Part shown: piece by piece, positions 35,707 through 64,000 of the stretch
Layout: each line of letters begins with the position of its first letter
Numbering within the stretch: position 1 is the stretch's first letter
Source of the DNA: Naegleria gruberi
Lineage: Eukaryota
Reading direction: 5' to 3' (one strand)
NCBI GenBank assembly: GCA_000004985.1
Contig: GG738894.1
DNA length: 64,000 nt
Position numbers and translations under genes: made by a program
The notes under the pieces: model-generated
Databases searched by the model: none
The model's input: only the letters and a program-made list of their open reading frames with translations
What the model was told of the DNA's origin: nothing

Positions 35707-36630
35707 ATGAAAGACTCACAACAACAGCAGCAACCAGCACAGCCCCAACCTTTGAAATTTATTCAAGTCTCGAATGTGAAAAAGAAACCAGTCCAACGAA
35801 AAAAGTACTATCCCACAAAGAGTAACAAAAGGCAGCAGGGTAGTAACAAATCATCAACAAGCAATCAAACATGTAGTCAAGAAGGTCATTCACAACATGA
35901 GCAAGCATCACATTCTCATGTACACTCGACAACTACATGTTCCTCATCTAGCTTATCCAGAAGTATTTTACATGGGATTGGATCTTCCGAGGTTAATTAT
36001 ATGAATGGAAATAATGACGATTCAACCAGCTCATTGGATGCTTCTTCATCTTTACACATGTTGCAACAACATCCAACAAGCAATTCTAAAGGACCGTCAT
36101 TGCATGTGTTCAACAACAATACATTGGATGAAACATCTAAACATAGTGATTCGAGTAGTGTAGGAATTGAACATTGCATGCATGGAAGAAATTCAACATC
36201 ATCTCCTGCTAGCAACATGTTATCCACATCCATCAATAATAACAGCAATAATATTCATTTTGTGATGGAGGCATCTCCCAAGTACATAACTCATGTGGCA
36301 AAGAAGAGGAATACTCTTGCCAAGGACAATCTCATCAAGGTTTTACACTTGTCACAAGTACAGGCATGCCGAGTATTGGGATGTAGTTTGTCCACATTAA
36401 AAAGAAGATTTGGAGAGGTTAAACAGGAATTGGGAATGGAGAAATGGCCCTCCTATTATGATGATGTGAGACATTTACCGATATTTCCCAAACTTTACCC
36501 AATGTCTCTGCAATTCATTATGAATGAGCATGACTGCTCTGATTTGCCACAGGACTGCAACCTAATATTTGAGCACGCTGCACAATTAAGCTCAACCTTT
36601 CCAAAACCATTAACTTCTCCTGAGGATTAA
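35707..36630 (+). CDS. RWP-RK domain transcription-factor-like protein (paralog 1)
   Basis: The C-terminal domain IKVLHLSQVQACRVLGCSLSTLKRRFGEVKQELGMEKWPSY matches the RWP-RK consensus (L…A..LG.S.T.LKR.CR..GI.RWP.RK). Gln/Ser-rich N-terminus. Confidence 0.6.
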   Translation: MKDSQQQQQPAQPQPLKFIQVSNVKKKPVQRKKYYPTKSNKRQQGSNKSSTSNQTCSQEGHSQHEQASHSHVHSTTTCSSSSLSRSILHGIGSSEVNYMNGNNDDSTSSLDASSSLHMLQQHPTSNSKGPSLHVFNNNTLDETSKHSDSSSVGIEHCMHGRNSTSSPASNMLSTSINNNSNNIHFVMEASPKYITHVAKKRNTLAKDNLIKVLHLSQVQACRVLGCSLSTLKRRFGEVKQELGMEKWPSYYDDVRHLPIFPKLYPMSLQFIMNEHDCSDLPQDCNLIFEHAAQLSSTFPKPLTSPED

Positions 36631-37519: not shown

Positions 37520-38023
37520 ATGCTAACTACCCTCACAACATCCAGTAATTTAAAGATAGATGGAAATTTGCAGATTGATTCACTTCCTTCCTCACTCCTT
37601 GTATCAACACAACCTCAGCACCATCAACAACAACAGGATAATTTATCTAGCTATAGCATTACAGTGTGGAGAAAATCCTCTCACGACTCTTCATTTCACA
37701 CCAAGATTGTTGAGAGAAGAAAACATGAGAGAAGAAACAAACTCATCACTCGAAAAGAAATGATTAAAGTATTGCACCTCTCTCAAAATCAAGCATGCAA
37801 AGTATTGAATTGTTCATTGTCGACTCTCAAGAGAAGATTCTACCAATTGAAAGATGAAATTGGACTCGATAGATGGCCTCAATACTTTAAAGAGGTGAGG
37901 CATTTGCCAATCTTTAATCAAATGTATCCAATGTCTCTTGAATTCATCCTCAATGATCCAAATACATGTCAACAAGATGAAACCATTAGTGATCCAGAAG
38001 AGTTTGATGATACTTCTAATTAG
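37520..38023 (+). CDS. RWP-RK domain protein (paralog 2). The 5' extent is uncertain.
   Basis: IKVLHLSQNQACKVLNCSLSTLKRRFYQLKDEIGLDRWPQYFKEVRHLPIFNQMYPMSLEFILND is about 65% identical to the C-terminus of 35707..36630. Confidence 0.6.
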   Translation: MLTTLTTSSNLKIDGNLQIDSLPSSLLVSTQPQHHQQQQDNLSSYSITVWRKSSHDSSFHTKIVERRKHERRNKLITRKEMIKVLHLSQNQACKVLNCSLSTLKRRFYQLKDEIGLDRWPQYFKEVRHLPIFNQMYPMSLEFILNDPNTCQQDETISDPEEFDDTSN

Positions 38024-39009: not shown

Positions 39010-40080
39010 CTATTTGATGGACACGAGAGGGAGGAAACCTTTACAATTTTGAGATTTACATTGGCACTTGCGTTGAGAAAATTGTAAATTTGCTGATTCA
39101 TTGTTTTGTAAAGTATTGCCCTCACCATAGTCAAATGTCAGTTCAGTATTTTCTGGAATATCTTTGGCAGCAAAGAAGAATAATCGTGGATGATCTTCTG
39201 AGCATGTTCTTAGGACTCTCCATGTGAGATTTGGATCACAACTGTGATTGAAAAATCTACTCACATTTCCAAACTTTTCTGCATCAATATTTAATCGTCT
39301 AGTTTCGTATTTTTGTTTGGATTCTAATGCCTGTGAAATGTGAAAATATTCCTTGATAATCAACAGGTAATGATGTTTGTCCTGTATGCTCGAATTTAAA
39401 ATCTCATTCGATTCTTTGTCTGAAAGAACTTTTCCAATATATTCACTAATGAACTCTCCCTTTTGTATGAAATTTTTGCATTTCACTCCAAATCCAACAC
39501 ATTCTCCAATTGAAAATAAATATAATGGTTTGTCAATAGTTCCCAAATAGTGAATGGGAGTAATTCTATTCCTACATCTAGTGGAATCACAACTGCAATC
39601 ATCTGAGCATTCAATAATTGGAAATGAATAATCCAAATCTAATAATCCATTTTCAGGTTTTAAAAAGTGTTTGCCATTGTGATAATTTCTAGCAAAACAT
39701 GAGCAATCCATTGTTGAGCATGAAATCTTTCTAACAACAATATTCGAATGAGATGAAATTAATTTGTTACAATCACAGACAGAATTGGTCAATTCATCAT
39801 TCTTATTATCCTCATTTTCCTCATCAAGTAATTGAAAATCATCACCTATTATGTCTTCACTCCAATAATTTTCAATAATATATGTAAAATCATTCAATAA
39901 AATCTCATCATGATTTGAATAATTAACAATTTTTAAATCTTCCTTTCCGAGTGAGATATCCACTCGATTGTGAATGATTTTCCTCCACCGAGAGCACACT
40001 CTAGCACAATTATACAAGACAAATGCTTCACAATATTGTGAGAAAAAAAGAATGAGGAGTGTGGAGGAAAATTGTTTCAT
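39010..40080 (-). CDS. SUV39-type SET-domain histone-lysine methyltransferase with an F-box-like N-terminus
   Basis: Pre-SET Cys cluster (CDCNKL…CSTMDCSCF…CSDDCSCDSTRCRNR). SET motifs GFGVKCKNFIQKGEFISEYIG and RFFNHSCDPN, then ELTFDYG. Post-SET CQCKSQNCKGFL. Confidence 0.8.
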   Translation of the reverse strand: MKQFSSTLLILFFSQYCEAFVLYNCARVCSRWRKIIHNRVDISLGKEDLKIVNYSNHDEILLNDFTYIIENYWSEDIIGDDFQLLDEENEDNKNDELTNSVCDCNKLISSHSNIVVRKISCSTMDCSCFARNYHNGKHFLKPENGLLDLDYSFPIIECSDDCSCDSTRCRNRITPIHYLGTIDKPLYLFSIGECVGFGVKCKNFIQKGEFISEYIGKVLSDKESNEILNSSIQDKHHYLLIIKEYFHISQALESKQKYETRRLNIDAEKFGNVSRFFNHSCDPNLTWRVLRTCSEDHPRLFFFAAKDIPENTELTFDYGEGNTLQNNESANLQFSQRKCQCKSQNCKGFLPLVSIK

Positions 40081-40193
40081 TTTTTTTGTAATATTTTCTG
40101 GTATCTAAGTTTGTTATTAATTGTTCAAGTACTTTTCCAGGATAGAGATGGAAATAATATTGTAATAATATTAATCCGTTTAACATGGAATTT

Positions 40194-41343
40194 TTACATA
40201 AATAAGCACTTTTTGGAATTTTGCTTTGGCTTAATCAATTTCTGTTTAAGAGATTCCAAATATTCCACATCAAGTTCAATAATATTCTTTAACAGTTTTA
40301 AACCCAAATCGGTTCCGCTTAGTAATCTCACACAATCTAAGAATATTTCTTCCACATTTATGTTAAACTTGGCACTTGTCACAGAGGTATTTAACAATTC
40401 ATATTGACTAATCTTGTCATTCACAACTTGTTTAGCTTTCTCAGTAATTTCCCTCTTTTCTTCCTTCTCTTCTTCTGTGAAATCATCAACCTTATTCAAT
40501 GCAAAAATTATTGGAATACTTTTTAATTGTTCGATTCCTCTAACTCGAGCCATGAATTCCATATGATATCCTAAAGAGCAATCATCTATTGAACTAGGAT
40601 CTGTCAGAGAGCAAACAACTACAATACAATTGGAATTACAAAGGCATTGCTCTTTAAATAAATTACTTTCATACTCCTCATGTCCATCTACGAGAACTCC
40701 AAAATTTTGTAAATAATTGTTTTACTTACAGAAATCGAAAATATTAAATAAATATTGATCTCCACCAATTTCCACATATTTTCTGTAATTATCATCAATT
40801 GTTGGGGTGTTGTGTTCAAGGAAATTTCCCTGAATGAATTGAATAATTAGCGAACTTTTACCTAATTATTTCGAATAGGTTTAATTCAATAATAAACTCA
40901 CCAACTCCTCCATCTCCAAGGAGAAGAATCTTAATTTCTTCATCATGATATTCATTTTCATTTCTAGTGATGGGAACTGTACTTAAAAATTGTTTCGTAT
41001 AAAGTGTTAGAATAATCTTTCTTCGGAGATTTCCTATTTCCACCATTTGATTTTTAACTTGATCAAATTCTTCTCTGTTTTTCTCTTTAATTCTAACTTG
41101 ACTTTCGAATAATTTCCACCAAATATTGTTGAAATATTCTTGCATTTCACAAGATAATGACTTGTTAATGCTTGTGAATGTCATCAGAAATCGAAGATTT
41201 TGCGAATAATTGATGTGTAAATTATTCGGATCAATGATAAATGAGAGAATACACAAGAGAAGTTCAATTGGAAGAGATGAGAACCGAGTTGTTTTTCGTT
41301 TGGCCATTTTTTTTAATGAAGAATTCAATAGATGAAAATCCAA
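40194..41343 (-). CDS. Ras-family small GTPase with a ~145-aa F-box-like N-terminal extension and a C-terminal CaaX. Three exons (40902..41343, 40730..40861, 40194..40687).
   Basis: P-loop GDGGVG|GKSSLI is split by a GTGAGT…AATTAG intron. Switch I PTIDDNYRK. G3 DFYGHEEY spans a GTAAGT…CGTAG intron. G4 NKVD, and the C-terminus ends …KKCLFM (CaaX). The N-terminus LPIELLLCILSFI…NIWWKL is F-box-like. Confidence 0.7.
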
Positions 41344-41452: not shown

Positions 41453-43375
41453 TCATTTATGCTTGGCTCTTACTAATTCTAATAGTATAGATATATTTGA
41501 TAGGGTTGAGAAATGACTTCTGGTGTTGAATCTAATGCATTCATGACATAAACTATTGAGAAATGAATTAATATCATCATCAAGTAATTCCCCAATCAGA
41601 AAATCTTGGAGCATTCTATCAAGATGTGACTCTGTAATAGTTGATTCATCGTTTTCAATATCAATATCAAGCCTCTGGTTGGCTGTAATGTACCTTTCAT
41701 ATAATTCCTCCATATAGATAACCATATTTTCGGCAAAGCAAACCAAGTTTATGTTCTTCTGATTCTTTTCATGTGTGTGTAATAAGTGAAAAAGGAGAAG
41801 AACAATAGCATCAAATGATTTCAGTAAGAAATCAAACACTACAAAATCTGATTTGGTGAAAGTGCAGTTTCGAAAGTATTTCTTAAACTTAAATAAAAAT
41901 CCCACATATCTCTGACAAGTCAATGCATCAATTTGGGTTAGGTTTTCAGGTACTGAAATTGGTTTCCAAGGATATTCTATCATATGCAATTTCAATTCCT
42001 CTACTAATGTTGTATCTTGAAAGTAATTACTATGTTGATGTTCCCTGGCGGAATAGATTAATTTCTCATATAATATATCAATCTCATCCTCATTTGAAGG
42101 TTTTGGTGAGAGTATTACCTTCAACATGGATTCATATAAGTCCTTATGATTTTGTTCCAAGGAATTCTGTGAAACTTTTGCACATTTCTTATTGCTCATT
42201 ATTATCAAGAAATGATAAATTCCCATAACACTATTTTCATCAGTAAAATCTGGAGGGAAAATGGGAATGAGGTTTCTTTTGCATTCAAATAGTTGTTCGC
42301 TCCTTCCTTCATGAAACCATTCAGTGAACACTTTGAAAGTCTTGCACCCCAAATCCTCGATTTGACTCCTTACACCACTGCTGGAATTAAATAACTCTCT
42401 GATCTTTAAAAGCAGTCCCTCAACATGCATATCATTACTGGTTATGAATTGTTTCAATACTTTACATTCTTTAATGAGAGGGGATAAAGTATTAATCCTT
42501 TGTACTGCCTCTTCAATAGATTTATAATGGGTCAAACAAATCCTCAAACCACTGCAAGAGGTGAAGAATTCAGAGATCATTTGTAATAGTATAATATGAA
42601 AATAAGGTTTTGAAAAAGTCACTTTTTCAATTTGATTTTCGTGTTCGATTCTAGATATTCCATTCGAGTTGTAGAACTTTTTACAATAAGAATCAATTAA
42701 CTCCAATAAATGATTGAGTGTTGTAAAATATGAATACCTGTTTTTAAAGGAAAATAATTGATACACATTATTTTCACTAAAATACGAAAAAAAATGAACT
42801 ATTCTAAAGAGCTCAGTTGACTCATCACCAAACTCAAATCCAAGTTCAATAACATTCTTCTTATTTTGGAAAAAAAATTCATTCCACTCATCTATTCTAT
42901 TTGTTGATATTTGTACATTTACAACACAGCCATATGAATTTGATTCAACATTGAATCTTGTAATTGAATAGATAGAATCTATTTGTCGGAAATTAGAAAA
43001 TATATTGTCAAAAACAGATGAATGTCTAATGTATCTCTTTTCTAATCTTTCCCCACTACTCGCATTAAGCATGCAAAAGTATAATCGTATCGATTTTGTA
43101 ATATTGTCGATGATTGATCTATCTTCCGATAGTGTGTATTCACATTCTTTAGGAACCACTTTTAATCCGCTAGAGAATGAACAATTATAAGACTCAAATG
43201 CGTTACAGTGTTGATAATGACTTCTCATTAAGATTTGAAGCTCCCACACCTTGCTTGGAGTACGAGTGTACACTTTCGAATTATGAAATATAAAGTAGTT
43301 TTGGCCATTACTTCCTGGTGCTTTTACCGAGAATAAAAGCTTATAAGGTGCCCGTGGTGTAGAATCACAATCCAT
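41453..43375 (-). CDS. Hypothetical protein (640 aa)
   Basis: Long intron-free ORF. No family recognised by eye. Confidence 0.5.
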   Translation of the reverse strand: MDCDSTPRAPYKLLFSVKAPGSNGQNYFIFHNSKVYTRTPSKVWELQILMRSHYQHCNAFESYNCSFSSGLKVVPKECEYTLSEDRSIIDNITKSIRLYFCMLNASSGERLEKRYIRHSSVFDNIFSNFRQIDSIYSITRFNVESNSYGCVVNVQISTNRIDEWNEFFFQNKKNVIELGFEFGDESTELFRIVHFFSYFSENNVYQLFSFKNRYSYFTTLNHLLELIDSYCKKFYNSNGISRIEHENQIEKVTFSKPYFHIILLQMISEFFTSCSGLRICLTHYKSIEEAVQRINTLSPLIKECKVLKQFITSNDMHVEGLLLKIRELFNSSSGVRSQIEDLGCKTFKVFTEWFHEGRSEQLFECKRNLIPIFPPDFTDENSVMGIYHFLIIMSNKKCAKVSQNSLEQNHKDLYESMLKVILSPKPSNEDEIDILYEKLIYSAREHQHSNYFQDTTLVEELKLHMIEYPWKPISVPENLTQIDALTCQRYVGFLFKFKKYFRNCTFTKSDFVVFDFLLKSFDAIVLLLFHLLHTHEKNQKNINLVCFAENMVIYMEELYERYITANQRLDIDIENDESTITESHLDRMLQDFLIGELLDDDINSFLNSLCHECIRFNTRSHFSTLSNISILLELVRAKHK

Positions 43376-43759: not shown

Positions 43760-45106
43760 CTATTCGTCAGCTTCCTCTTCTTCTTCCTCTTCTTCTTCAT
43801 TGTCACTTCTCTTACGTTTGTACCCCATCGATTTGAGAGCTTGCTTTGCCTCTTCCTCTTCCTCCTCATTAACTTCCTCATCATCAATAAACGTATCATC
43901 CTCAGACCCATCTTCATCATCATAGTCATCATCAACATGACGGAAAGGAATCCATTCATCAGCATTTGACATAAATTCGTTTGCATTTTTTCCAAAGGCA
44001 ATTTGGAAGAATTGGTAAATCAAACCTTCCTTAATGGCTTGTGGAGGATGACTGGGAAATTCTTGTTTCAATATTCCTGAAATGTCAGAAGAGAAAACAA
44101 AGCTTTGAACCAAGTCAAGAAGGGTTCTAGATATTTCACATGTGAACTCAGTATCAAAATATCCATGTTGATTGGACCTCTTTGAATGTTTGAACGCTTC
44201 CTTTCCATAAACTGAAGCACTCTCAATATAAGTATTATTGCTTCTATAAGAATCCAACTTATCCTCAAAATTTGTTTCAATAAGGAGGGGATATCCACAG
44301 TTGAGGAAAACAACAACTGAATTTGTGAATGTCTTTTCTTCAGATTCGGTATCCTCTCTCGTTTCCAAAACATACACACCTTTCAATTTCTTATATAATT
44401 TAGGTACTAATACTGCTGGTATCTCATGACTTTCCGAGCCAACGTTGAAATAAATAGTGTCATTCTCATCTAGTAACGATTTGTACGACTCTTGAATTGA
44501 AATTCCTGTTTTAAGAAAACCAATCTTTTCTATTACAGATTCCAATAGTGAAACATCCTTACTCTTACTAAAATTGTCCATTAACCTAACAACCTTCTCC
44601 TTGACAATAATGTCATCACCATTTCCCTGACATTTGACAAAAAGTTTCAACACATCTCGTAGGTTTGTTGGTGGTCTTATGATTGTTTTATCCTCATCTT
44701 CATCATAATCTTTCTTTCTCTTCTTCTTCTTTTGCTTTCGTTCAGATCTCTCAGCTCCTTTTTCAACAAGTTTATCCTTCTCAACAAAAGCATTGATGGC
44801 CTTTTGCAAATCATCAACTTGATCCAATTCAAGATTTCTCATCAGAAAATCTCTGGTAAATCCATCAGAATTGAAAACATTGTTAAAAGTTTTGGAAATT
44901 AAAAACGGTTGAGTAATTGACCAATTGCAATGGTGTGTGAATTGCAAAATACGTAAACACACCAGTTCATCGAAACAAGCAGATACTTGTGAAGCCATTT
45001 TTTTCTGAAAATCTTTCCATGTTTTGTCGGAAATTGATTTTACAATCGCAAATTGTAACATTTCAATCTTGATTATCTTCATCCACAAATCAGATGATGT
45101 AGTCAA
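43760..45106 (-). CDS. Hypothetical protein with Lys-rich and acidic C-terminal tracts (448 aa)
   Basis: Long ORF with a C-terminal KKKKRKKDYDEDEDK … EEEEEEEEEADE tail. The overlapping minus-strand ORFs 43648..44001 and 44068..44379 are out-of-frame artefacts. Confidence 0.5.
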   Translation of the reverse strand: MTTSSDLWMKIIKIEMLQFAIVKSISDKTWKDFQKKMASQVSACFDELVCLRILQFTHHCNWSITQPFLISKTFNNVFNSDGFTRDFLMRNLELDQVDDLQKAINAFVEKDKLVEKGAERSERKQKKKKRKKDYDEDEDKTIIRPPTNLRDVLKLFVKCQGNGDDIIVKEKVVRLMDNFSKSKDVSLLESVIEKIGFLKTGISIQESYKSLLDENDTIYFNVGSESHEIPAVLVPKLYKKLKGVYVLETREDTESEEKTFTNSVVVFLNCGYPLLIETNFEDKLDSYRSNNTYIESASVYGKEAFKHSKRSNQHGYFDTEFTCEISRTLLDLVQSFVFSSDISGILKQEFPSHPPQAIKEGLIYQFFQIAFGKNANEFMSNADEWIPFRHVDDDYDDEDGSEDDTFIDDEEVNEEEEEEAKQALKSMGYKRKRSDNEEEEEEEEEADE

Positions 45107-60870: not shown

Positions 60871-60920
60871 NNNNNNNNNNNNNNNNNNNNNNNNNNNNNN
60901 NNNNNNNNNNNNNNNNNNNN
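60871..60920. other. Assembly gap (50 N)
   Basis: Run of N. Confidence 1.
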
Positions 60921-61909
60921 CGGATAGAGATGGAAATAATATTGTAATAATATTAATCCGTTTAACATGGAATTTTTACATAAATAAGCACTTTTTGGAA
61001 TTTTGCTTTGGCTTAATCAATTTCTGTTTAAGAGATTCCAAATATTCCACATCAAGTTCAATAATATTCTTTAACAGTTTTAAACCCAAATCGGTTCCGC
61101 TTAGTAATCTCACACAATCTAAGAATATTTCTTCCACATTTATGTTAAACTTGGCACTTGTCACAGAGGTATTTAACAATTCATATTGACTAATCTTGTC
61201 ATTCACAACTTGTTTAGCTTTCTCAGTAATTTCCCTCTTTTCTTCCTTCTCTTCTTCTGTGAAATCATCAACCTTATTCAATGCAAAAATTATTGGAATA
61301 CTTTTTAATTGTTCGATTCCTCTAACTCGAGCCATGAATTCCATATGATATCCTAAAGAGCAATCATCTATTGAACTAGGATCTGTCAGAGAGCAAACAA
61401 CTACAATACAATTGGAATTACAAAGGCATTGCTCTTTAAATAAATTACTTTCATACTCCTCATGTCCATCTACGAGAACTCCAAAATTTTGTAAATAATT
61501 GTTTTACTTACAGAAATCGAAAATATTAAATAAATATTGATCTCCACCAATTTCCACATATTTTCTGTAATTATCATCAATTGTTGGGGTGTTGTGTTCA
61601 AGGAAATTTCCCTGAATGAATTGAATAATTAGCGAACTTTTACCTAATTATTTCGAATAGGTTTAATTCAATAATAAACTCACCAACTCCTCCATCTCCA
61701 AGGAGAAGAATCTTAATTTCTTCATCATGATATTCATTTTCATTTCTAGTGATGGGAACTGTACTTAAAAATTGTTTCGTATAAAGTGTTAGAATAATCT
61801 TTCTTCGGAGATTTCCTATTTCCACCATTTGATTTTTAACTTGATCAAATTCTTCTCTGTTTTTCTCTTTAATTCTAACTTGACTTTCGAATAATTTCCA
61901 CCAAATATT
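60921..61909. repeat. Exact duplicate of 40139..41127 (offset +20782), bounded by N gaps
   Basis: Every block I compared is identical to the original, including the exon 2 region. It carries exons 3 and 2 and part of exon 1 of the F-box-Ras gene. The first base after the gap differs (cgg versus agg). Confidence 0.8.
60976..61909 (-). CDS. Partial second copy of the F-box-Ras-like GTPase (exons ~60976..61469, 61512..61643, 61684..gap)
   Basis: Identical sequence to 40194..41127. Truncated by the gap at 61910. Confidence 0.6.
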
Positions 61910-64000
61910 NNNNNNNNNNNNNNNNNNNNNNNNNNNNNNNNNNNNNNNNNNNNNNNNNNNNNNNNNNNNNNNNNNNNNNNNNNNNNNNNNNNNNNNNNNN
62001 NNNNNNNNNNNNNNNNNNNNNNNNNNNNNNNNNNNNNNNNNNNNNNNNNNNNNNNNNNNNNNNNNNNNNNNNNNNNNNNNNNNNNNNNNNNNNNNNNNNN
62101 NNNNNNNNNNNNNNNNNNNNNNNNNNNNNNNNNNNNNNNNNNNNNNNNNNNNNNNNNNNNNNNNNNNNNNNNNNNNNNNNNNNNNNNNNNNNNNNNNNNN
62201 NNNNNNNNNNNNNNNNNNNNNNNNNNNNNNNNNNNNNNNNNNNNNNNNNNNNNNNNNNNNNNNNNNNNNNNNNNNNNNNNNNNNNNNNNNNNNNNNNNNN
62301 NNNNNNNNNNNNNNNNNNNNNNNNNNNNNNNNNNNNNNNNNNNNNNNNNNNNNNNNNNNNNNNNNNNNNNNNNNNNNNNNNNNNNNNNNNNNNNNNNNNN
62401 NNNNNNNNNNNNNNNNNNNNNNNNNNNNNNNNNNNNNNNNNNNNNNNNNNNNNNNNNNNNNNNNNNNNNNNNNNNNNNNNNNNNNNNNNNNNNNNNNNNN
62501 NNNNNNNNNNNNNNNNNNNNNNNNNNNNNNNNNNNNNNNNNNNNNNNNNNNNNNNNNNNNNNNNNNNNNNNNNNNNNNNNNNNNNNNNNNNNNNNNNNNN
62601 NNNNNNNNNNNNNNNNNNNNNNNNNNNNNNNNNNNNNNNNNNNNNNNNNNNNNNNNNNNNNNNNNNNNNNNNNNNNNNNNNNNNNNNNNNNNNNNNNNNN
62701 NNNNNNNNNNNNNNNNNNNNNNNNNNNNNNNNNNNNNNNNNNNNNNNNNNNNNNNNNNNNNNNNNNNNNNNNNNNNNNNNNNNNNNNNNNNNNNNNNNNN
62801 NNNNNNNNNNNNNNNNNNNNNNNNNNNNNNNNNNNNNNNNNNNNNNNNNNNNNNNNNNNNNNNNNNNNNNNNNNNNNNNNNNNNNNNNNNNNNNNNNNNN
62901 NNNNNNNNNNNNNNNNNNNNNNNNNNNNNNNNNNNNNNNNNNNNNNNNNNNNNNNNNNNNNNNNNNNNNNNNNNNNNNNNNNNNNNNNNNNNNNNNNNNN
63001 NNNNNNNNNNNNNNNNNNNNNNNNNNNNNNNNNNNNNNNNNNNNNNNNNNNNNNNNNNNNNNNNNNNNNNNNNNNNNNNNNNNNNNNNNNNNNNNNNNNN
63101 NNNNNNNNNNNNNNNNNNNNNNNNNNNNNNNNNNNNNNNNNNNNNNNNNNNNNNNNNNNNNNNNNNNNNNNNNNNNNNNNNNNNNNNNNNNNNNNNNNNN
63201 NNNNNNNNNNNNNNNNNNNNNNNNNNNNNNNNNNNNNNNNNNNNNNNNNNNNNNNNNNNNNNNNNNNNNNNNNNNNNNNNNNNNNNNNNNNNNNNNNNNN
63301 NNNNNNNNNNNNNNNNNNNNNNNNNNNNNNNNNNNNNNNNNNNNNNNNNNNNNNNNNNNNNNNNNNNNNNNNNNNNNNNNNNNNNNNNNNNNNNNNNNNN
63401 NNNNNNNNNNNNNNNNNNNNNNNNNNNNNNNNNNNNNNNNNNNNNNNNNNNNNNNNNNNNNNNNNNNNNNNNNNNNNNNNNNNNNNNNNNNNNNNNNNNN
63501 NNNNNNNNNNNNNNNNNNNNNNNNNNNNNNNNNNNNNNNNNNNNNNNNNNNNNNNNNNNNNNNNNNNNNNNNNNNNNNNNNNNNNNNNNNNNNNNNNNNN
63601 NNNNNNNNNNNNNNNNNNNNNNNNNNNNNNNNNNNNNNNNNNNNNNNNNNNNNNNNNNNNNNNNNNNNNNNNNNNNNNNNNNNNNNNNNNNNNNNNNNNN
63701 NNNNNNNNNNNNNNNNNNNNNNNNNNNNNNNNNNNNNNNNNNNNNNNNNNNNNNNNNNNNNNNNNNNNNNNNNNNNNNNNNNNNNNNNNNNNNNNNNNNN
63801 NNNNNNNNNNNNNNNNNNNNNNNNNNNNNNNNNNNNNNNNNNNNNNNNNNNNNNNNNNNNNNNNNNNNNNNNNNNNNNNNNNNNNNNNNNNNNNNNNNNN
63901 NNNNNNNNNNNNNNNNNNNNNNNNNNNNNNNNNNNNNNNNNNNNNNNNNNNNNNNNNNNNNNNNNNNNNNNNNNNNNNNNNNNNNNNNNNNNNNNNNNNN
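61910..64000. other. Assembly gap (2091 N)
   Basis: Run of N to the window end. Confidence 1.

What the first reader, a model, noticed from the sequence alone, without database searches (positions are those of the whole stretch)
40194..41343. Ras-like GTPase with an F-box-like N-terminal extension and a CaaX tail
After splicing two 40-42-nt introns, the gene encodes about 145 aa that include an F-box-like segment (LPIELLLCILSFI…WWKL), followed by a complete Ras-family G domain (GDGGVGKSS, PTIDDNYRK, DFYGHEE, NKVD) ending in CLFM. An F-box fused to a prenylated small GTPase is an unusual architecture. It could tether SCF activity to membranes or put the GTPase under ubiquitin control.
Basis: partly seen in the sequence, partly recalled or inferred. 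Interest (0 to 1): 0.6.

Follow-up and report, generated by a model that had tools for sequence, protein, structure and literature searches.

The report
Naegleria Ras GTPase with cryptic F-box
This is an already-annotated Naegleria gruberi Ras-family gene from an amoeba-specific subfamily whose conserved N-terminal extension is probably a very divergent F-box, a GTPase-plus-ubiquitin-ligase-adaptor design already described for other GTPase families in this organism.

Summary
A minus-strand gene (ATG 41307, stop ending at 40194, GT..AG introns of 40 and 42 nt) encodes 343 aa, identical to Naegleria gruberi XP_002672966.1, "ras family small GTPase". Exon 1 holds both the LPIELLLCILSFI segment and the start of the P-loop, so the fusion is not a gene-model artefact.

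The Ras domain is solid (Pfam 89.8 bits; best solved relative Rap1b), and the tail is polybasic plus CLFM.

The F-box call is only partly supported. Pfam F-box-like scores 13.5 bits against a cutoff of 24.3. No relative, and not the family consensus, reaches the cutoff (best 21.4). Fold searches are inconclusive. However, the extension is conserved in at least 20 paralogues and orthologues in N. gruberi, N. lovaniensis and Willaertia magna. Most give sub-threshold F-box hits at the same site. Profile-profile comparison with verified F-boxes gives 94% probability (score 41.6 against a shuffle maximum of 13.8). A weak signal survives removal of helix 1.

The architecture is not new for Naegleria. 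Herman et al. [quoted passage not shown] Modest interest.

The parts
40194..41307 (-). Whole coding region of the Ras-family gene, ATG to stop (343 aa; XP_002672966.1)
   Evidence: Splice model and translation. Exact match to the annotated N. gruberi protein.
40902..41307 (-). Exon 1 (aa 1-135 plus 1 nt): the N-terminal extension plus beta-1 and GDGGVG of the P-loop
   Evidence: One uninterrupted ORF. This shows that the extension and the G domain are one gene.
40862..40901 (-). Intron 1, 40 nt, GTGAGT..TAG; phase 1, inside the P-loop Gly-Lys junction
   Evidence: Retaining it gives a stop after 19 codons. Removing it restores GxxxxGKS.
40730..40861 (-). Exon 2 (KSSLIIQF...NIFDF plus the first base of the Tyr codon): end of the P-loop, switch I (PTIDD), beta-2/beta-3, Asp of DxxG
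   Evidence: Aligned to Rap1b.
40688..40729 (-). Intron 2, 42 nt, GTAAGT..TAG; splits the Tyr codon of DFYGHEE
40194..40687 (-). Exon 3: rest of the G domain (YGHEE, NKVD, SAK), C-terminal helices, polybasic stretch, CLFM, stop
41236..41274 (-). aa 12-24, LPIELLLCILSFI: F-box helix-1 signature. These are the best conserved positions of the extension (L12 invariant; E15, I20, L21 conserved in at least 90% of sequences).
   Evidence: Pfam F-box-like profile positions 1-21. hhalign: 56% identity to Skp2 helix 1. Conservation in A5. AF2 helix at 14-24.
41104..41235 (-). aa 25-68: loop insertion (aa 25-36), then the putative F-box H2 (LRFLMTFTSINKSL) and H3 (YFNNIWWKLFE)
   Evidence: hhalign aligns SINKxF to VCKxW and FNxxWW to D..LW in register. 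With H1 deleted the score is 16.5, against a shuffle maximum of 13.2. AF2 helices at 34-47 and 53-71.
40942..41103 (-). aa 69-122: family-specific helical linker (two long helices, with a conserved (L/M)(K/R)RK(I/V)LL motif) and a low-confidence loop before the G domain
   Evidence: Alignments A1, A4, A5. AF2 helices at 75-91 and 94-109, pLDDT below 50 at 112-122. No Pfam match.
40317..40941 (-). aa 123-303 (introns included): Ras-family G domain. G1 GDGGVGKS, switch I T156, G3 DFYG with His182 in place of Ras Gln61, G4 NKVD, G5 SAK.
   Evidence: Pfam Ras 89.8 bits at aa 126-301. Rap1b E = 3e-21. Motif table.
40236..40316 (-). aa 304-330: family-specific C-terminal helices with the conserved LxLLKxxIxxD motif
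   Evidence: Alignments A1 and A4. AF2 helices at 305-318 and 320-330.
40197..40235 (-). aa 331-343: polybasic stretch (KPKQNSKK) and the CaaX box CLFM (40197-40208). X = Met predicts farnesylation.
   Evidence: Sequence. CaaX ending in Met is conserved in most of the family. The prenylation rule comes from established knowledge of CaaX prenyltransferases.
60922..61909 (-). 988-bp copy, 100% identical to 40140-41127 (3' flank, exons 3 and 2, and part of exon 1), lying between a 50-N gap and terminal N padding. It is the source of the 122-aa model NAEGRDRAFT_72016.
   Evidence: P0011.

Best explanation
The locus encodes one member of a heterolobosean-specific, heavily duplicated subfamily of Ras-like GTPases. 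The subfamily is found in N. gruberi, N. lovaniensis and Willaertia magna.

All members share four parts:
1. An N-terminal all-helical extension of about 110-150 aa.
2. A Ras/Rap-like G domain.
3. A conserved C-terminal helix.
4. A polybasic stretch plus a CaaX box that mostly ends in Met.

The first roughly 60 residues of the extension are most likely a strongly diverged F-box. Helix 1 (LPxEIL..ILSF) is canonical. A 10-30-residue insertion follows it. Helices 2 and 3 have degenerated to SINKxF and FNxFWW.

Inferred mechanism:
- The protein is farnesylated and sits on a membrane.
- The F-box binds Skp1, and through it possibly Cul1-Rbx1.
- The G domain has His182 where Ras has the catalytic Gln61, so it is probably slow at hydrolysis and largely GTP-bound. 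It would serve as the partner-recognition module.
- The protein would therefore act as a membrane-anchored SCF substrate receptor, be turned over itself through SCF, or both. This would be the SCF counterpart of RhoBTB-Cul3.

Shown here: the gene structure, the single-gene fusion, the Ras domain, conservation of the extension across the family, and the statistical similarity to F-boxes.

Inferred only: Skp1 binding, prenylation, nucleotide state, and any ubiquitin-ligase role.
For: Gene model and identity:
- Splice model, translation and exact database match.

Ras domain:
- Pfam Ras 89.8 bits.
- Rap1b E = 3e-21.

The extension is a conserved family feature:
- It aligns across 13 N. gruberi paralogues from Table S8.
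- It aligns across database members from three species.
- Its most conserved positions are the F-box helix-1 signature residues L12, E15, I20 and L21.

Recurrent sub-threshold F-box-clan hits, always at the same N-terminal site:
- Window protein 13.5 bits.
- XP_002668120 14.7 bits, spanning profile positions 2-38.
- P0044 21.4, P0050 19.3 (F-box-like_2), P0037 16.6, P0052 16.0, P0068 15.6, P0077 12.2, P0151 11.9.
- Family consensus 21.3 bits, E = 2e-4, the top Pfam family.

Profile-profile comparison (hhalign):
- Family profile A5 against a Pfam-verified F-box reference: 94.2% probability, P = 1.1e-7, score 41.6, spanning H1-H3.
- 150 column shuffles give 8.3 +/- 1.5, maximum 13.8.
- With H1 deleted from both profiles: 16.5, against shuffles of 7.1 +/- 1.6, maximum 13.2.
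- With the window protein left out: 88.7% probability.
- Against a Naegleria-only reference: 87.1% probability, P = 4e-6, 49 columns, none of 100 shuffles reaching it.

Other support:
- Four of the six PDB sequence hits to the A5 profile are helix 1 of the MAX2 F-box.
- AF2 predicts helices where H1, H2 and H3 should lie, with pLDDT 70-85.
- Real F-boxes fused to GTPases are common in this genome (PMC8296547; confirmed with Pfam).
- Gln61 is replaced by His, Pro, Ala or another residue in most of the family.
Against: - No Pfam F-box model reaches its gathering score for this protein, for any relative, or for the family consensus.
- The first family profile (A2, N. gruberi only) found no F-box protein in the PDB at E <= 10. 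Its hhalign signal vanished once helix 1 was removed.
- Against canonical human, yeast and plant F-boxes alone, only helix 1 aligns (21 columns).
- Foldseek found nothing in the PDB.
- The curators who re-annotated all Naegleria Ras-superfamily genes did not label this gene or its paralogues as F-box.
- There is no experimental or co-folding evidence of Skp1 binding.
Confidence: 0.55

Rival explanations
1. The N-terminal extension is a lineage-specific helical domain that is not a functional F-box. The LPxEIL..ILSF helix would then be a remnant of an ancestral F-box that no longer binds Skp1, or a convergent amphipathic helix. In this reading the extension regulates the G domain, for example by autoinhibition, dimerisation or effector docking. 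The protein would be simply a farnesylated, membrane-bound Ras paralogue in the expanded Naegleria signalling repertoire.
For: - All curated F-box thresholds are missed.
- Similarity to canonical F-boxes is confined to helix 1.
- There is a long insertion between H1 and H2, and the H2 Trp and the Cys/Val signature are lost.
- Structural searches return generic helical bundles.
- About 50 further conserved helical residues (aa 69-122) have no F-box counterpart.
- The expert re-annotation does not label it F-box.
Against: - The best conserved positions of the extension are exactly the F-box helix-1 contact residues.
- A signal remains in the correct register after H1 is deleted, and no shuffle reaches it.
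- F-box-clan models are the only Pfam families that hit the extension repeatedly across divergent members.
- Bona fide F-box-GTPase fusions are abundant in the same genome.
Confidence: 0.38
2. The locus is a decaying paralogue or an artefact. It would be a non-functional product of birth-and-death evolution in the Ras expansion, or a gene model distorted by assembly problems, and its architecture would carry no functional meaning.
For: - The closest relative is only 38% identical, and no one-to-one orthologue was seen.
- The accession occurs only once in Table S8.
- Switch II is unusual (DFYGHEE).
- A 100% identical partial copy sits at the scaffold end between N runs.
- Herman et al. note recent birth-and-death in related Naegleria GTPase clades.
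Against: - The 343-codon frame is intact, with two canonical GT..AG introns that precisely restore the G1 and G3 motifs.
- G1, the switch I Thr, DxxG, NKxD, SAK and the CaaX box are all preserved.
- The model is identical to the reference annotation.
- The main copy lies inside contiguous sequence with normal neighbours.
- Table S8 does not flag it.
Confidence: 0.05

Closest known systems
[quoted passage not shown] 2021, PMC8296547, supplementary text 4 and Table S8)
   Same: Same organism and same layout: an N-terminal extension beginning LPxE(I/L)L, a helical linker, a small-GTPase domain, and often a CaaX tail (for example Rac XP_002671699.1 ...CIIC and XP_002676320.1 ...CLIQ). These groups are likewise lineage-specific and duplicated. 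Their F-boxes align to this family's extension across H1-H3.
   Different: Those proteins have Rab, Rho, Ran or G-alpha type G domains. At least some pass Pfam F-box thresholds (32-37 bits). This gene has a Ras/Rap-type G domain, fails the thresholds, carries a loop insertion in the putative F-box, and is listed there as plain 'Ras'.
TbFRP of Trypanosoma brucei and other Euglenozoa (FYVE + F-box + Ras-like GTPase; PMC3593210)
   Same: An F-box placed N-terminal to a small-GTPase domain in another member of Discoba. Its authors link the F-box to rapid turnover of the GTPase.
   Different: TbFRP has an N-terminal FYVE domain for PI3P-dependent membrane binding and a Rab18/Ypt6-like G domain. Here there is no FYVE domain, membrane attachment would be by CaaX, and the G domain is Ras/Rap-like. 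The TbFRP authors found no Naegleria orthologue.
RhoBTB proteins (Rho-like GTPase + BTB domains; Cul3 adaptors; PMC10413933, PMC5442418)
   Same: A small-GTPase domain fused in one polypeptide to a cullin-RING-ligase adaptor module. The G domain is atypical. This is the best-studied working model for a GTPase that is also a ubiquitin-ligase substrate receptor.
   Different: The adaptor module is BTB (Cul3), not F-box (Skp1-Cul1), and it lies C-terminal to the G domain. RhoBTB has no CaaX box. It is an analogue, not a homologue, outside the G domain.
Prenylated F-box proteins: human FBXL2 and FBXO10, yeast Rcy1p (PMC9988375, PMC11042265, PMC2175155)
   Same: An F-box plus a C-terminal CaaX box that places SCF activity (FBXL2, FBXO10) or a Skp1 complex (Rcy1p) on specific membranes.
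   Different: Their substrate-binding parts are LRR or other domains, not a GTPase. FBXL2 and FBXO10 are geranylgeranylated, whereas X = Met here predicts farnesylation.
Rap1/Ras/M-Ras small GTPases
   Same: These are the best solved relatives of the G domain (Rap1b E = 3e-21, about 30-35% identity). They share G1, the switch I Thr, DxxG, NKxD and SAK, and a polybasic-plus-CaaX tail like that of K-Ras4B.
   Different: This protein has a 123-aa N-terminal extension, a C-terminal helical extension of about 30 aa, switch II DFYGHEE in place of DTAGQEE (His at the Gln61 position), and an insertion of about 11 aa between G4 and G5.

Membership tests
Ras family small GTPase (Pfam PF00071) | Profile score above the curated gathering threshold | tested here: met
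   89.8 bits against 21.6, aa 126-301, profile positions 1-159 of 162. All 13 paralogues also match.
Ras family small GTPase (Pfam PF00071) | Nucleotide-binding motifs G1 GxxxxGK[ST], switch I Thr, G3 DxxG, G4 NKxD, G5 SAK | tested here: met
   GDGGVGKS (131-138), T156 in PTIDD, DFYG (178-181), NKVD (244-247), SAK (284-286).
Ras family small GTPase (Pfam PF00071) | Catalytic Gln at the Ras-61 position (needed for intrinsic and RasGAP-stimulated hydrolysis) | tested here: not met
   His182 occupies this position (DFYGHEE). Most family members have Pro, His, Ala or another residue there. This does not exclude membership, since Rap has Thr, but it predicts atypical hydrolysis.
Ras family small GTPase (Pfam PF00071) | C-terminal CaaX box that is actually prenylated | not testable with these tools
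   The CLFM motif preceded by KPKQNSKK is present. CaaX ending in Met is conserved in the family. The modification itself needs an experiment.
F-box domain (Pfam PF00646 / PF12937 / PF13013) | Profile score above the curated gathering threshold | tested here: not met
   Window protein 13.5 bits against 24.3. Best relative 21.4 (P0044), and F-box-like_2 19.3 against 21.6 (P0050). Family consensus 21.3.
F-box domain (Pfam PF00646 / PF12937 / PF13013) | Helix-1 signature L-P-x-E-(I/L)-(I/L)-x-x-(I/L)-(F/L)-x-(Y/F)-L | tested here: met
   LPIELLLCILSFI at aa 12-24. It is 56% identical to Skp2 helix 1 in hhalign. L12 is invariant, and E15, I20 and L21 are conserved in at least 90% of the family.
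F-box domain (Pfam PF00646 / PF12937 / PF13013) | Helices 2 and 3 (V-C-K-x-W ... L-W) following helix 1 in register | tested here: inconclusive
   hhalign aligns SINKxF and FNxxWW to them across an insertion of about 15 aa. With H1 deleted the score is 16.5, P = 0.005, above all 150 shuffles. The N. gruberi-only profile gave background, and canonical-only references align H1 only.
F-box domain (Pfam PF00646 / PF12937 / PF13013) | Three-helix F-box fold superposable on solved F-box structures | tested here: inconclusive
F-box domain (Pfam PF00646 / PF12937 / PF13013) | Binds Skp1 | not testable with these tools
   There is no complex-prediction tool and no experiment here. See the next steps.
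Naegleria F-box-GTPase fusions (Herman et al. 2021) | A Ras-superfamily G domain plus an N-terminal extension identifiable as an F-box, in Naegleria | tested here: inconclusive
   The G domain and the conserved extension are present. The extension aligns to the labelled Naegleria F-boxes at 87% probability. [quoted passage not shown]
RhoBTB | Rho-type G domain followed by tandem BTB domains | tested here: not met
   No BTB hit in Pfam, and the G domain is Ras/Rap-like. I considered RhoBTB only as a functional analogue.

The most novel reading that the evidence does not exclude
A whole clade of at least 20 farnesylated Ras paralogues in Vahlkampfiid amoebae (Naegleria and Willaertia) are cryptic F-box proteins. 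They would be membrane-anchored SCF substrate receptors in which a Ras-type G domain, probably locked in the GTP state because Gln61 is lost, selects the targets. That would extend GTPase-coupled ubiquitination in Naegleria to the Ras family, the one large family for which it has not been reported.
Probability: 0.4. Interest if true: 0.5.

Novelty: new member of a known kind. Interest (0 to 1): 0.3.

Why it matters
[quoted passage not shown] That would strengthen the published suggestion that GTPase-dependent ubiquitination is an important regulatory mode in these amoebae.

It would also show that standard domain searches under-count F-boxes in this lineage, because the domain here carries a loop insertion and degenerate helices 2 and 3.

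For general biology the value is modest. The gene is already annotated. The architecture has precedents in Naegleria, in trypanosomes (TbFRP) and, by analogy, in RhoBTB and FBXL2. Naegleria still lacks routine genetic tools to test function.

Tried and rejected
1. Exon 1 belonging to a separate upstream gene. Rejected: exon 1 itself contains beta-1 and GDGGVG.

2. Word-indexed homologue searches. These returned almost only generic G-domain hits and missed the paralogues. The exhaustive phmmer search and the published Table S8 were needed instead.

3. AF2 with the paralogues taken from the paper. I rebuilt the alignment from database hits.

4. Family profile A2 against PDB sequences. No F-box hits; the top hits were apolipoprotein A-I at E about 0.05, which is noise.

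5. Foldseek against the PDB with the N-terminal model. Zero hits.

7. AFDB50 fold search. The library was not available.

8. A local cluster of related genes. Rejected: the neighbours are SET-domain, RWP-RK, mitochondrial-carrier, DUF4116 and unannotated ORFs.

9. The second copy at 60.9-61.9 kb as a real tandem paralogue. More likely a redundant contig, because it is 100% identical, truncated, and bounded by N runs.

10. Stitching an upstream out-of-frame ORF onto the SET-domain neighbour to complete its F-box. Borderline only (24.2 bits against 24.3) and with no evident intron, so left unresolved.

Full report
WHAT IS THERE

The finding lies on the minus strand of an AT-rich eukaryotic window (30-37% GC). 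Reading the reverse strand and splicing it explicitly gives:
- ATG at 41307.
- Exon 1 at 41307-40902.
- A 40-nt GTGAGT..TAG intron at 40901-40862.
- Exon 2 at 40861-40730.
- A 42-nt GTAAGT..TAG intron at 40729-40688.
- Exon 3 running to a TAA that ends at 40194.

The product is 343 aa. Both introns are needed to rebuild invariant GTPase motifs. Intron 1 interrupts the P-loop (GDGGVG|KSS). Intron 2 splits the Tyr codon of DFYGHEE. If intron 1 is retained, the frame stops after 19 codons.

The spliced protein is identical, residue for residue, to Naegleria gruberi NEG-M XP_002672966.1 / EFC40222.1 / UniProt D2VSN6, annotated as "ras family small GTPase".

The sequence settles this directly. Exon 1 contains the LPIELLLCILSFI segment and also beta-1 and the first half of the P-loop (KILLLGDGGVG) in one open frame.

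THE G DOMAIN AND THE TAIL

- Pfam Ras (PF00071) scores 89.8 bits against a cutoff of 21.6, over aa 126-301.
- The best solved relatives are Rap1b/Rap1A (E = 3e-21), then M-Ras and K/H-Ras.
- G1 (GDGGVGKS), the switch I Thr (T156), DxxG, NKVD and SAK are all present.
- The Ras Gln61 position is His182. Across the family this position is mostly Pro, His, Ala or something else. From established Ras biochemistry, this predicts poor intrinsic and RasGAP-stimulated hydrolysis.
- The C-terminus is a polybasic stretch followed by CLFM. CaaX boxes ending in Met dominate the family. By the known prenyltransferase rules this predicts farnesylation.

THE N-TERMINAL EXTENSION IS A FAMILY FEATURE

Herman et al. 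2021 (PMC8296547) re-annotated more than 350 N. gruberi Ras-superfamily genes. Their Table S8 lists this accession as "Ras" with no extra domain.

The same table holds many "Ras" entries with exactly this layout. Thirteen of them align along their whole length, through these parts:
- LPxEIL..ILSF
- FQSLNK
- YFNEFWW
- ELKRKILL
- the G domain
- LxLLKxVIxxD
- a polybasic stretch plus CaaX

An exhaustive phmmer scan of 1.84 billion representative proteins added members from N. gruberi, N. lovaniensis and Willaertia magna, and from unnamed environmental assemblies. The closest relative of the window protein is only 38% identical, so it is a divergent paralogue without a close orthologue.

This is therefore a Vahlkampfiid-specific, much-duplicated Ras subfamily with conserved N- and C-terminal extensions.

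IS THE EXTENSION AN F-BOX?

Direct HMM evidence is below threshold everywhere:
- Window protein: F-box-like 13.5 bits, E = 0.061, cutoff 24.3, and only profile positions 1-21 of 47 are matched.
- Relatives: 11.9 to 21.4 bits.
- Family consensus: 21.3 bits, E = 2e-4.

The first family profile (N. gruberi only, A2) found no F-box protein in the PDB. Its hhalign match to a Pfam-verified F-box reference set (A3, verified) was significant: score 33.2, against shuffles of 9.1 +/- 1.8. But that signal vanished when helix 1 was removed.

A taxonomically broader profile (A5) behaved better:
- 94.2% probability, P = 1.1e-7, score 41.6, against shuffles of 8.3 +/- 1.5 with a maximum of 13.8.
- The alignment now spans H1, H2 (SINKxF aligned to VCKxW) and H3 (FNxxWW aligned to D..LW), across a loop insertion of about 15 residues.
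- With helix 1 deleted from both profiles, the rest still aligns in the same register. The score is 16.5, P = 0.005, above all 150 shuffles, whose maximum is 13.2.

Robustness checks:
- The result holds with the window protein left out (88.7% probability).
- It holds against an independent reference made only of the Naegleria GTPases that Table S8 labels F-box (87.1% probability, 49 columns, none of 100 shuffles reaching it).
- Against canonical human, yeast and plant F-boxes alone, only helix 1 aligns.
- The window protein on its own reaches only 44% probability, on helix 1.

Other observations:
- With A5, four of the six weak PDB sequence hits are helix 1 of the MAX2 F-box (E = 1.7).
- The best conserved positions in the extension are the F-box helix-1 residues L12, E15, I20 and L21.

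STRUCTURE

- AF2 with the family alignment gives a moderately confident model (pLDDT 71.9 for the full length, 74.4 for the N-terminal domain).
- The extension is all-helical, with helices at 14-24, 34-47, 53-71, 75-91 and 94-109. It is followed by a low-confidence linker, the G domain, and two C-terminal helices.
- The helices fall where F-box H1-H3 are expected.
- Foldseek found nothing in the PDB.
- The AFDB library was unavailable.
- Structural evidence is therefore inconclusive.

WEIGHING IT

The F-box reading is the best single explanation. It rests on family-level statistics, not on any curated threshold. I put it at about 0.55-0.6 for "homologous to, and working as, an F-box".

The main rival, at about 0.38, is a lineage-specific helical regulatory domain that at most keeps a relic of helix 1.

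A pseudogene or annotation artefact is unlikely, at about 0.05, given the intact frame, motifs and splice sites.

MECHANISM (INFERRED)

- Farnesylation plus the polybasic stretch would place the protein on a membrane.
- The F-box would recruit Skp1, and perhaps Cul1-Rbx1.
- The Gln61-less G domain, probably GTP-bound most of the time, would be the partner-binding module.
- The protein would then be a membrane-anchored SCF substrate receptor, would be controlled by SCF-dependent self-turnover, or both.

Precedents for each element exist:
- RhoBTB as a GTPase fused to a Cul3 adaptor (PMC10413933, PMC5442418).
- FBXL2 and FBXO10 as prenylated SCF receptors (PMC9988375, PMC11042265).
- Rcy1p as an F-box-plus-CaaX protein (PMC2175155).
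- TbFRP as an F-box-GTPase in trypanosomes, where the F-box was linked to rapid turnover (PMC3593210).

NOVELTY

The architecture is not new for this organism. [quoted passage not shown] They also note that one Rab-like subgroup carries a CaaX box. Table S8 shows F-box-labelled Rac proteins ending in CaaX.

What is not in that work is an F-box label on any Ras-family member. The only extra domains noted there for Ras are ANK repeats and BTB. So the increment is a probable, cryptic extension of a known theme to one more GTPase family. I classify this as a new member of a known kind, of modest interest.

SIDE OBSERVATIONS

- Window 60922-61909 is a 988-bp, 100% identical copy of 40140-41127, lying between a 50-N gap and terminal N padding. 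It explains the separate 122-aa "predicted protein" NAEGRDRAFT_72016 (P0011). It looks like a redundant contig at the scaffold end.
- The downstream SET-domain gene (39010-40080, XP_002672965.1) has a sub-threshold F-box-like match that lacks helix 1. An upstream out-of-frame ORF reads like the missing helix. Stitching the two gives a borderline score of 24.2 bits against a cutoff of 24.3.

Noticed in passing
window 60922-61909 (compare 40140-41127); N runs at 60871-60920 and 61910-64000: A 988-bp stretch is 100% identical to the 3' two-thirds of the Ras gene. It is bounded by a 50-N gap and by N padding to the end of the window. It carries the ORF 60976-61344(-), which NCBI lists as a separate 122-aa 'predicted protein' NAEGRDRAFT_72016 (P0011). 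It is probably a redundant contig at the scaffold end rather than a real duplication.
   Followed up: partly
window 39010-40186, minus strand (SET-domain gene XP_002672965.1 and its 5' flank): The neighbouring Pre-SET/SET methyltransferase gene has a sub-threshold F-box-like match (19.9 bits) covering only profile positions 9-37, so helix 1 is missing. An out-of-frame ORF just upstream (40028-40186) reads HLYPGKVLEQLITNLD, which resembles F-box helix 1. Stitching the two gives F-box-like 24.2 bits and F-box 19.2 bits. No GT..AG intron is evident, so there may be a frameshift or a mis-modelled 5' end. An F-box plus SET protein would be unusual.
   Followed up: partly
window 35707-36630 (+) and 37520-38023 (+): Two nearby ORFs each carry an RWP-RK DNA-binding domain (26.6 and 33.4 bits; cutoff 29.3). 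They may be exons of one gene or a tandem pair.
   Followed up: no
family-wide (alignments A1 and A4); window aa 182 = nt 40680-40682: The Ras Gln61 position is rarely Gln in this subfamily. Many members have DTAGPEE, the window protein has DFYGHEE, and some have lost DxxG altogether. This suggests that much of the clade is hydrolysis-deficient, or even a set of pseudo-GTPases.
   Followed up: partly
window aa 304-330 = nt 40236-40316: A conserved C-terminal helix motif (LxLLKxxIxxD) lies between the G domain and the polybasic/CaaX tail. It is shared by Naegleria and Willaertia members and has no Pfam match. Its function is unknown.
   Followed up: no
window 41453-43375 (-) and 43760-45106 (-): The two large upstream ORFs (640 and 448 aa) have no Pfam match at E <= 0.1. 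The 640-aa sequence is not in the protein collection as an exact match, so its annotated model probably differs, for example by introns.
   Followed up: no
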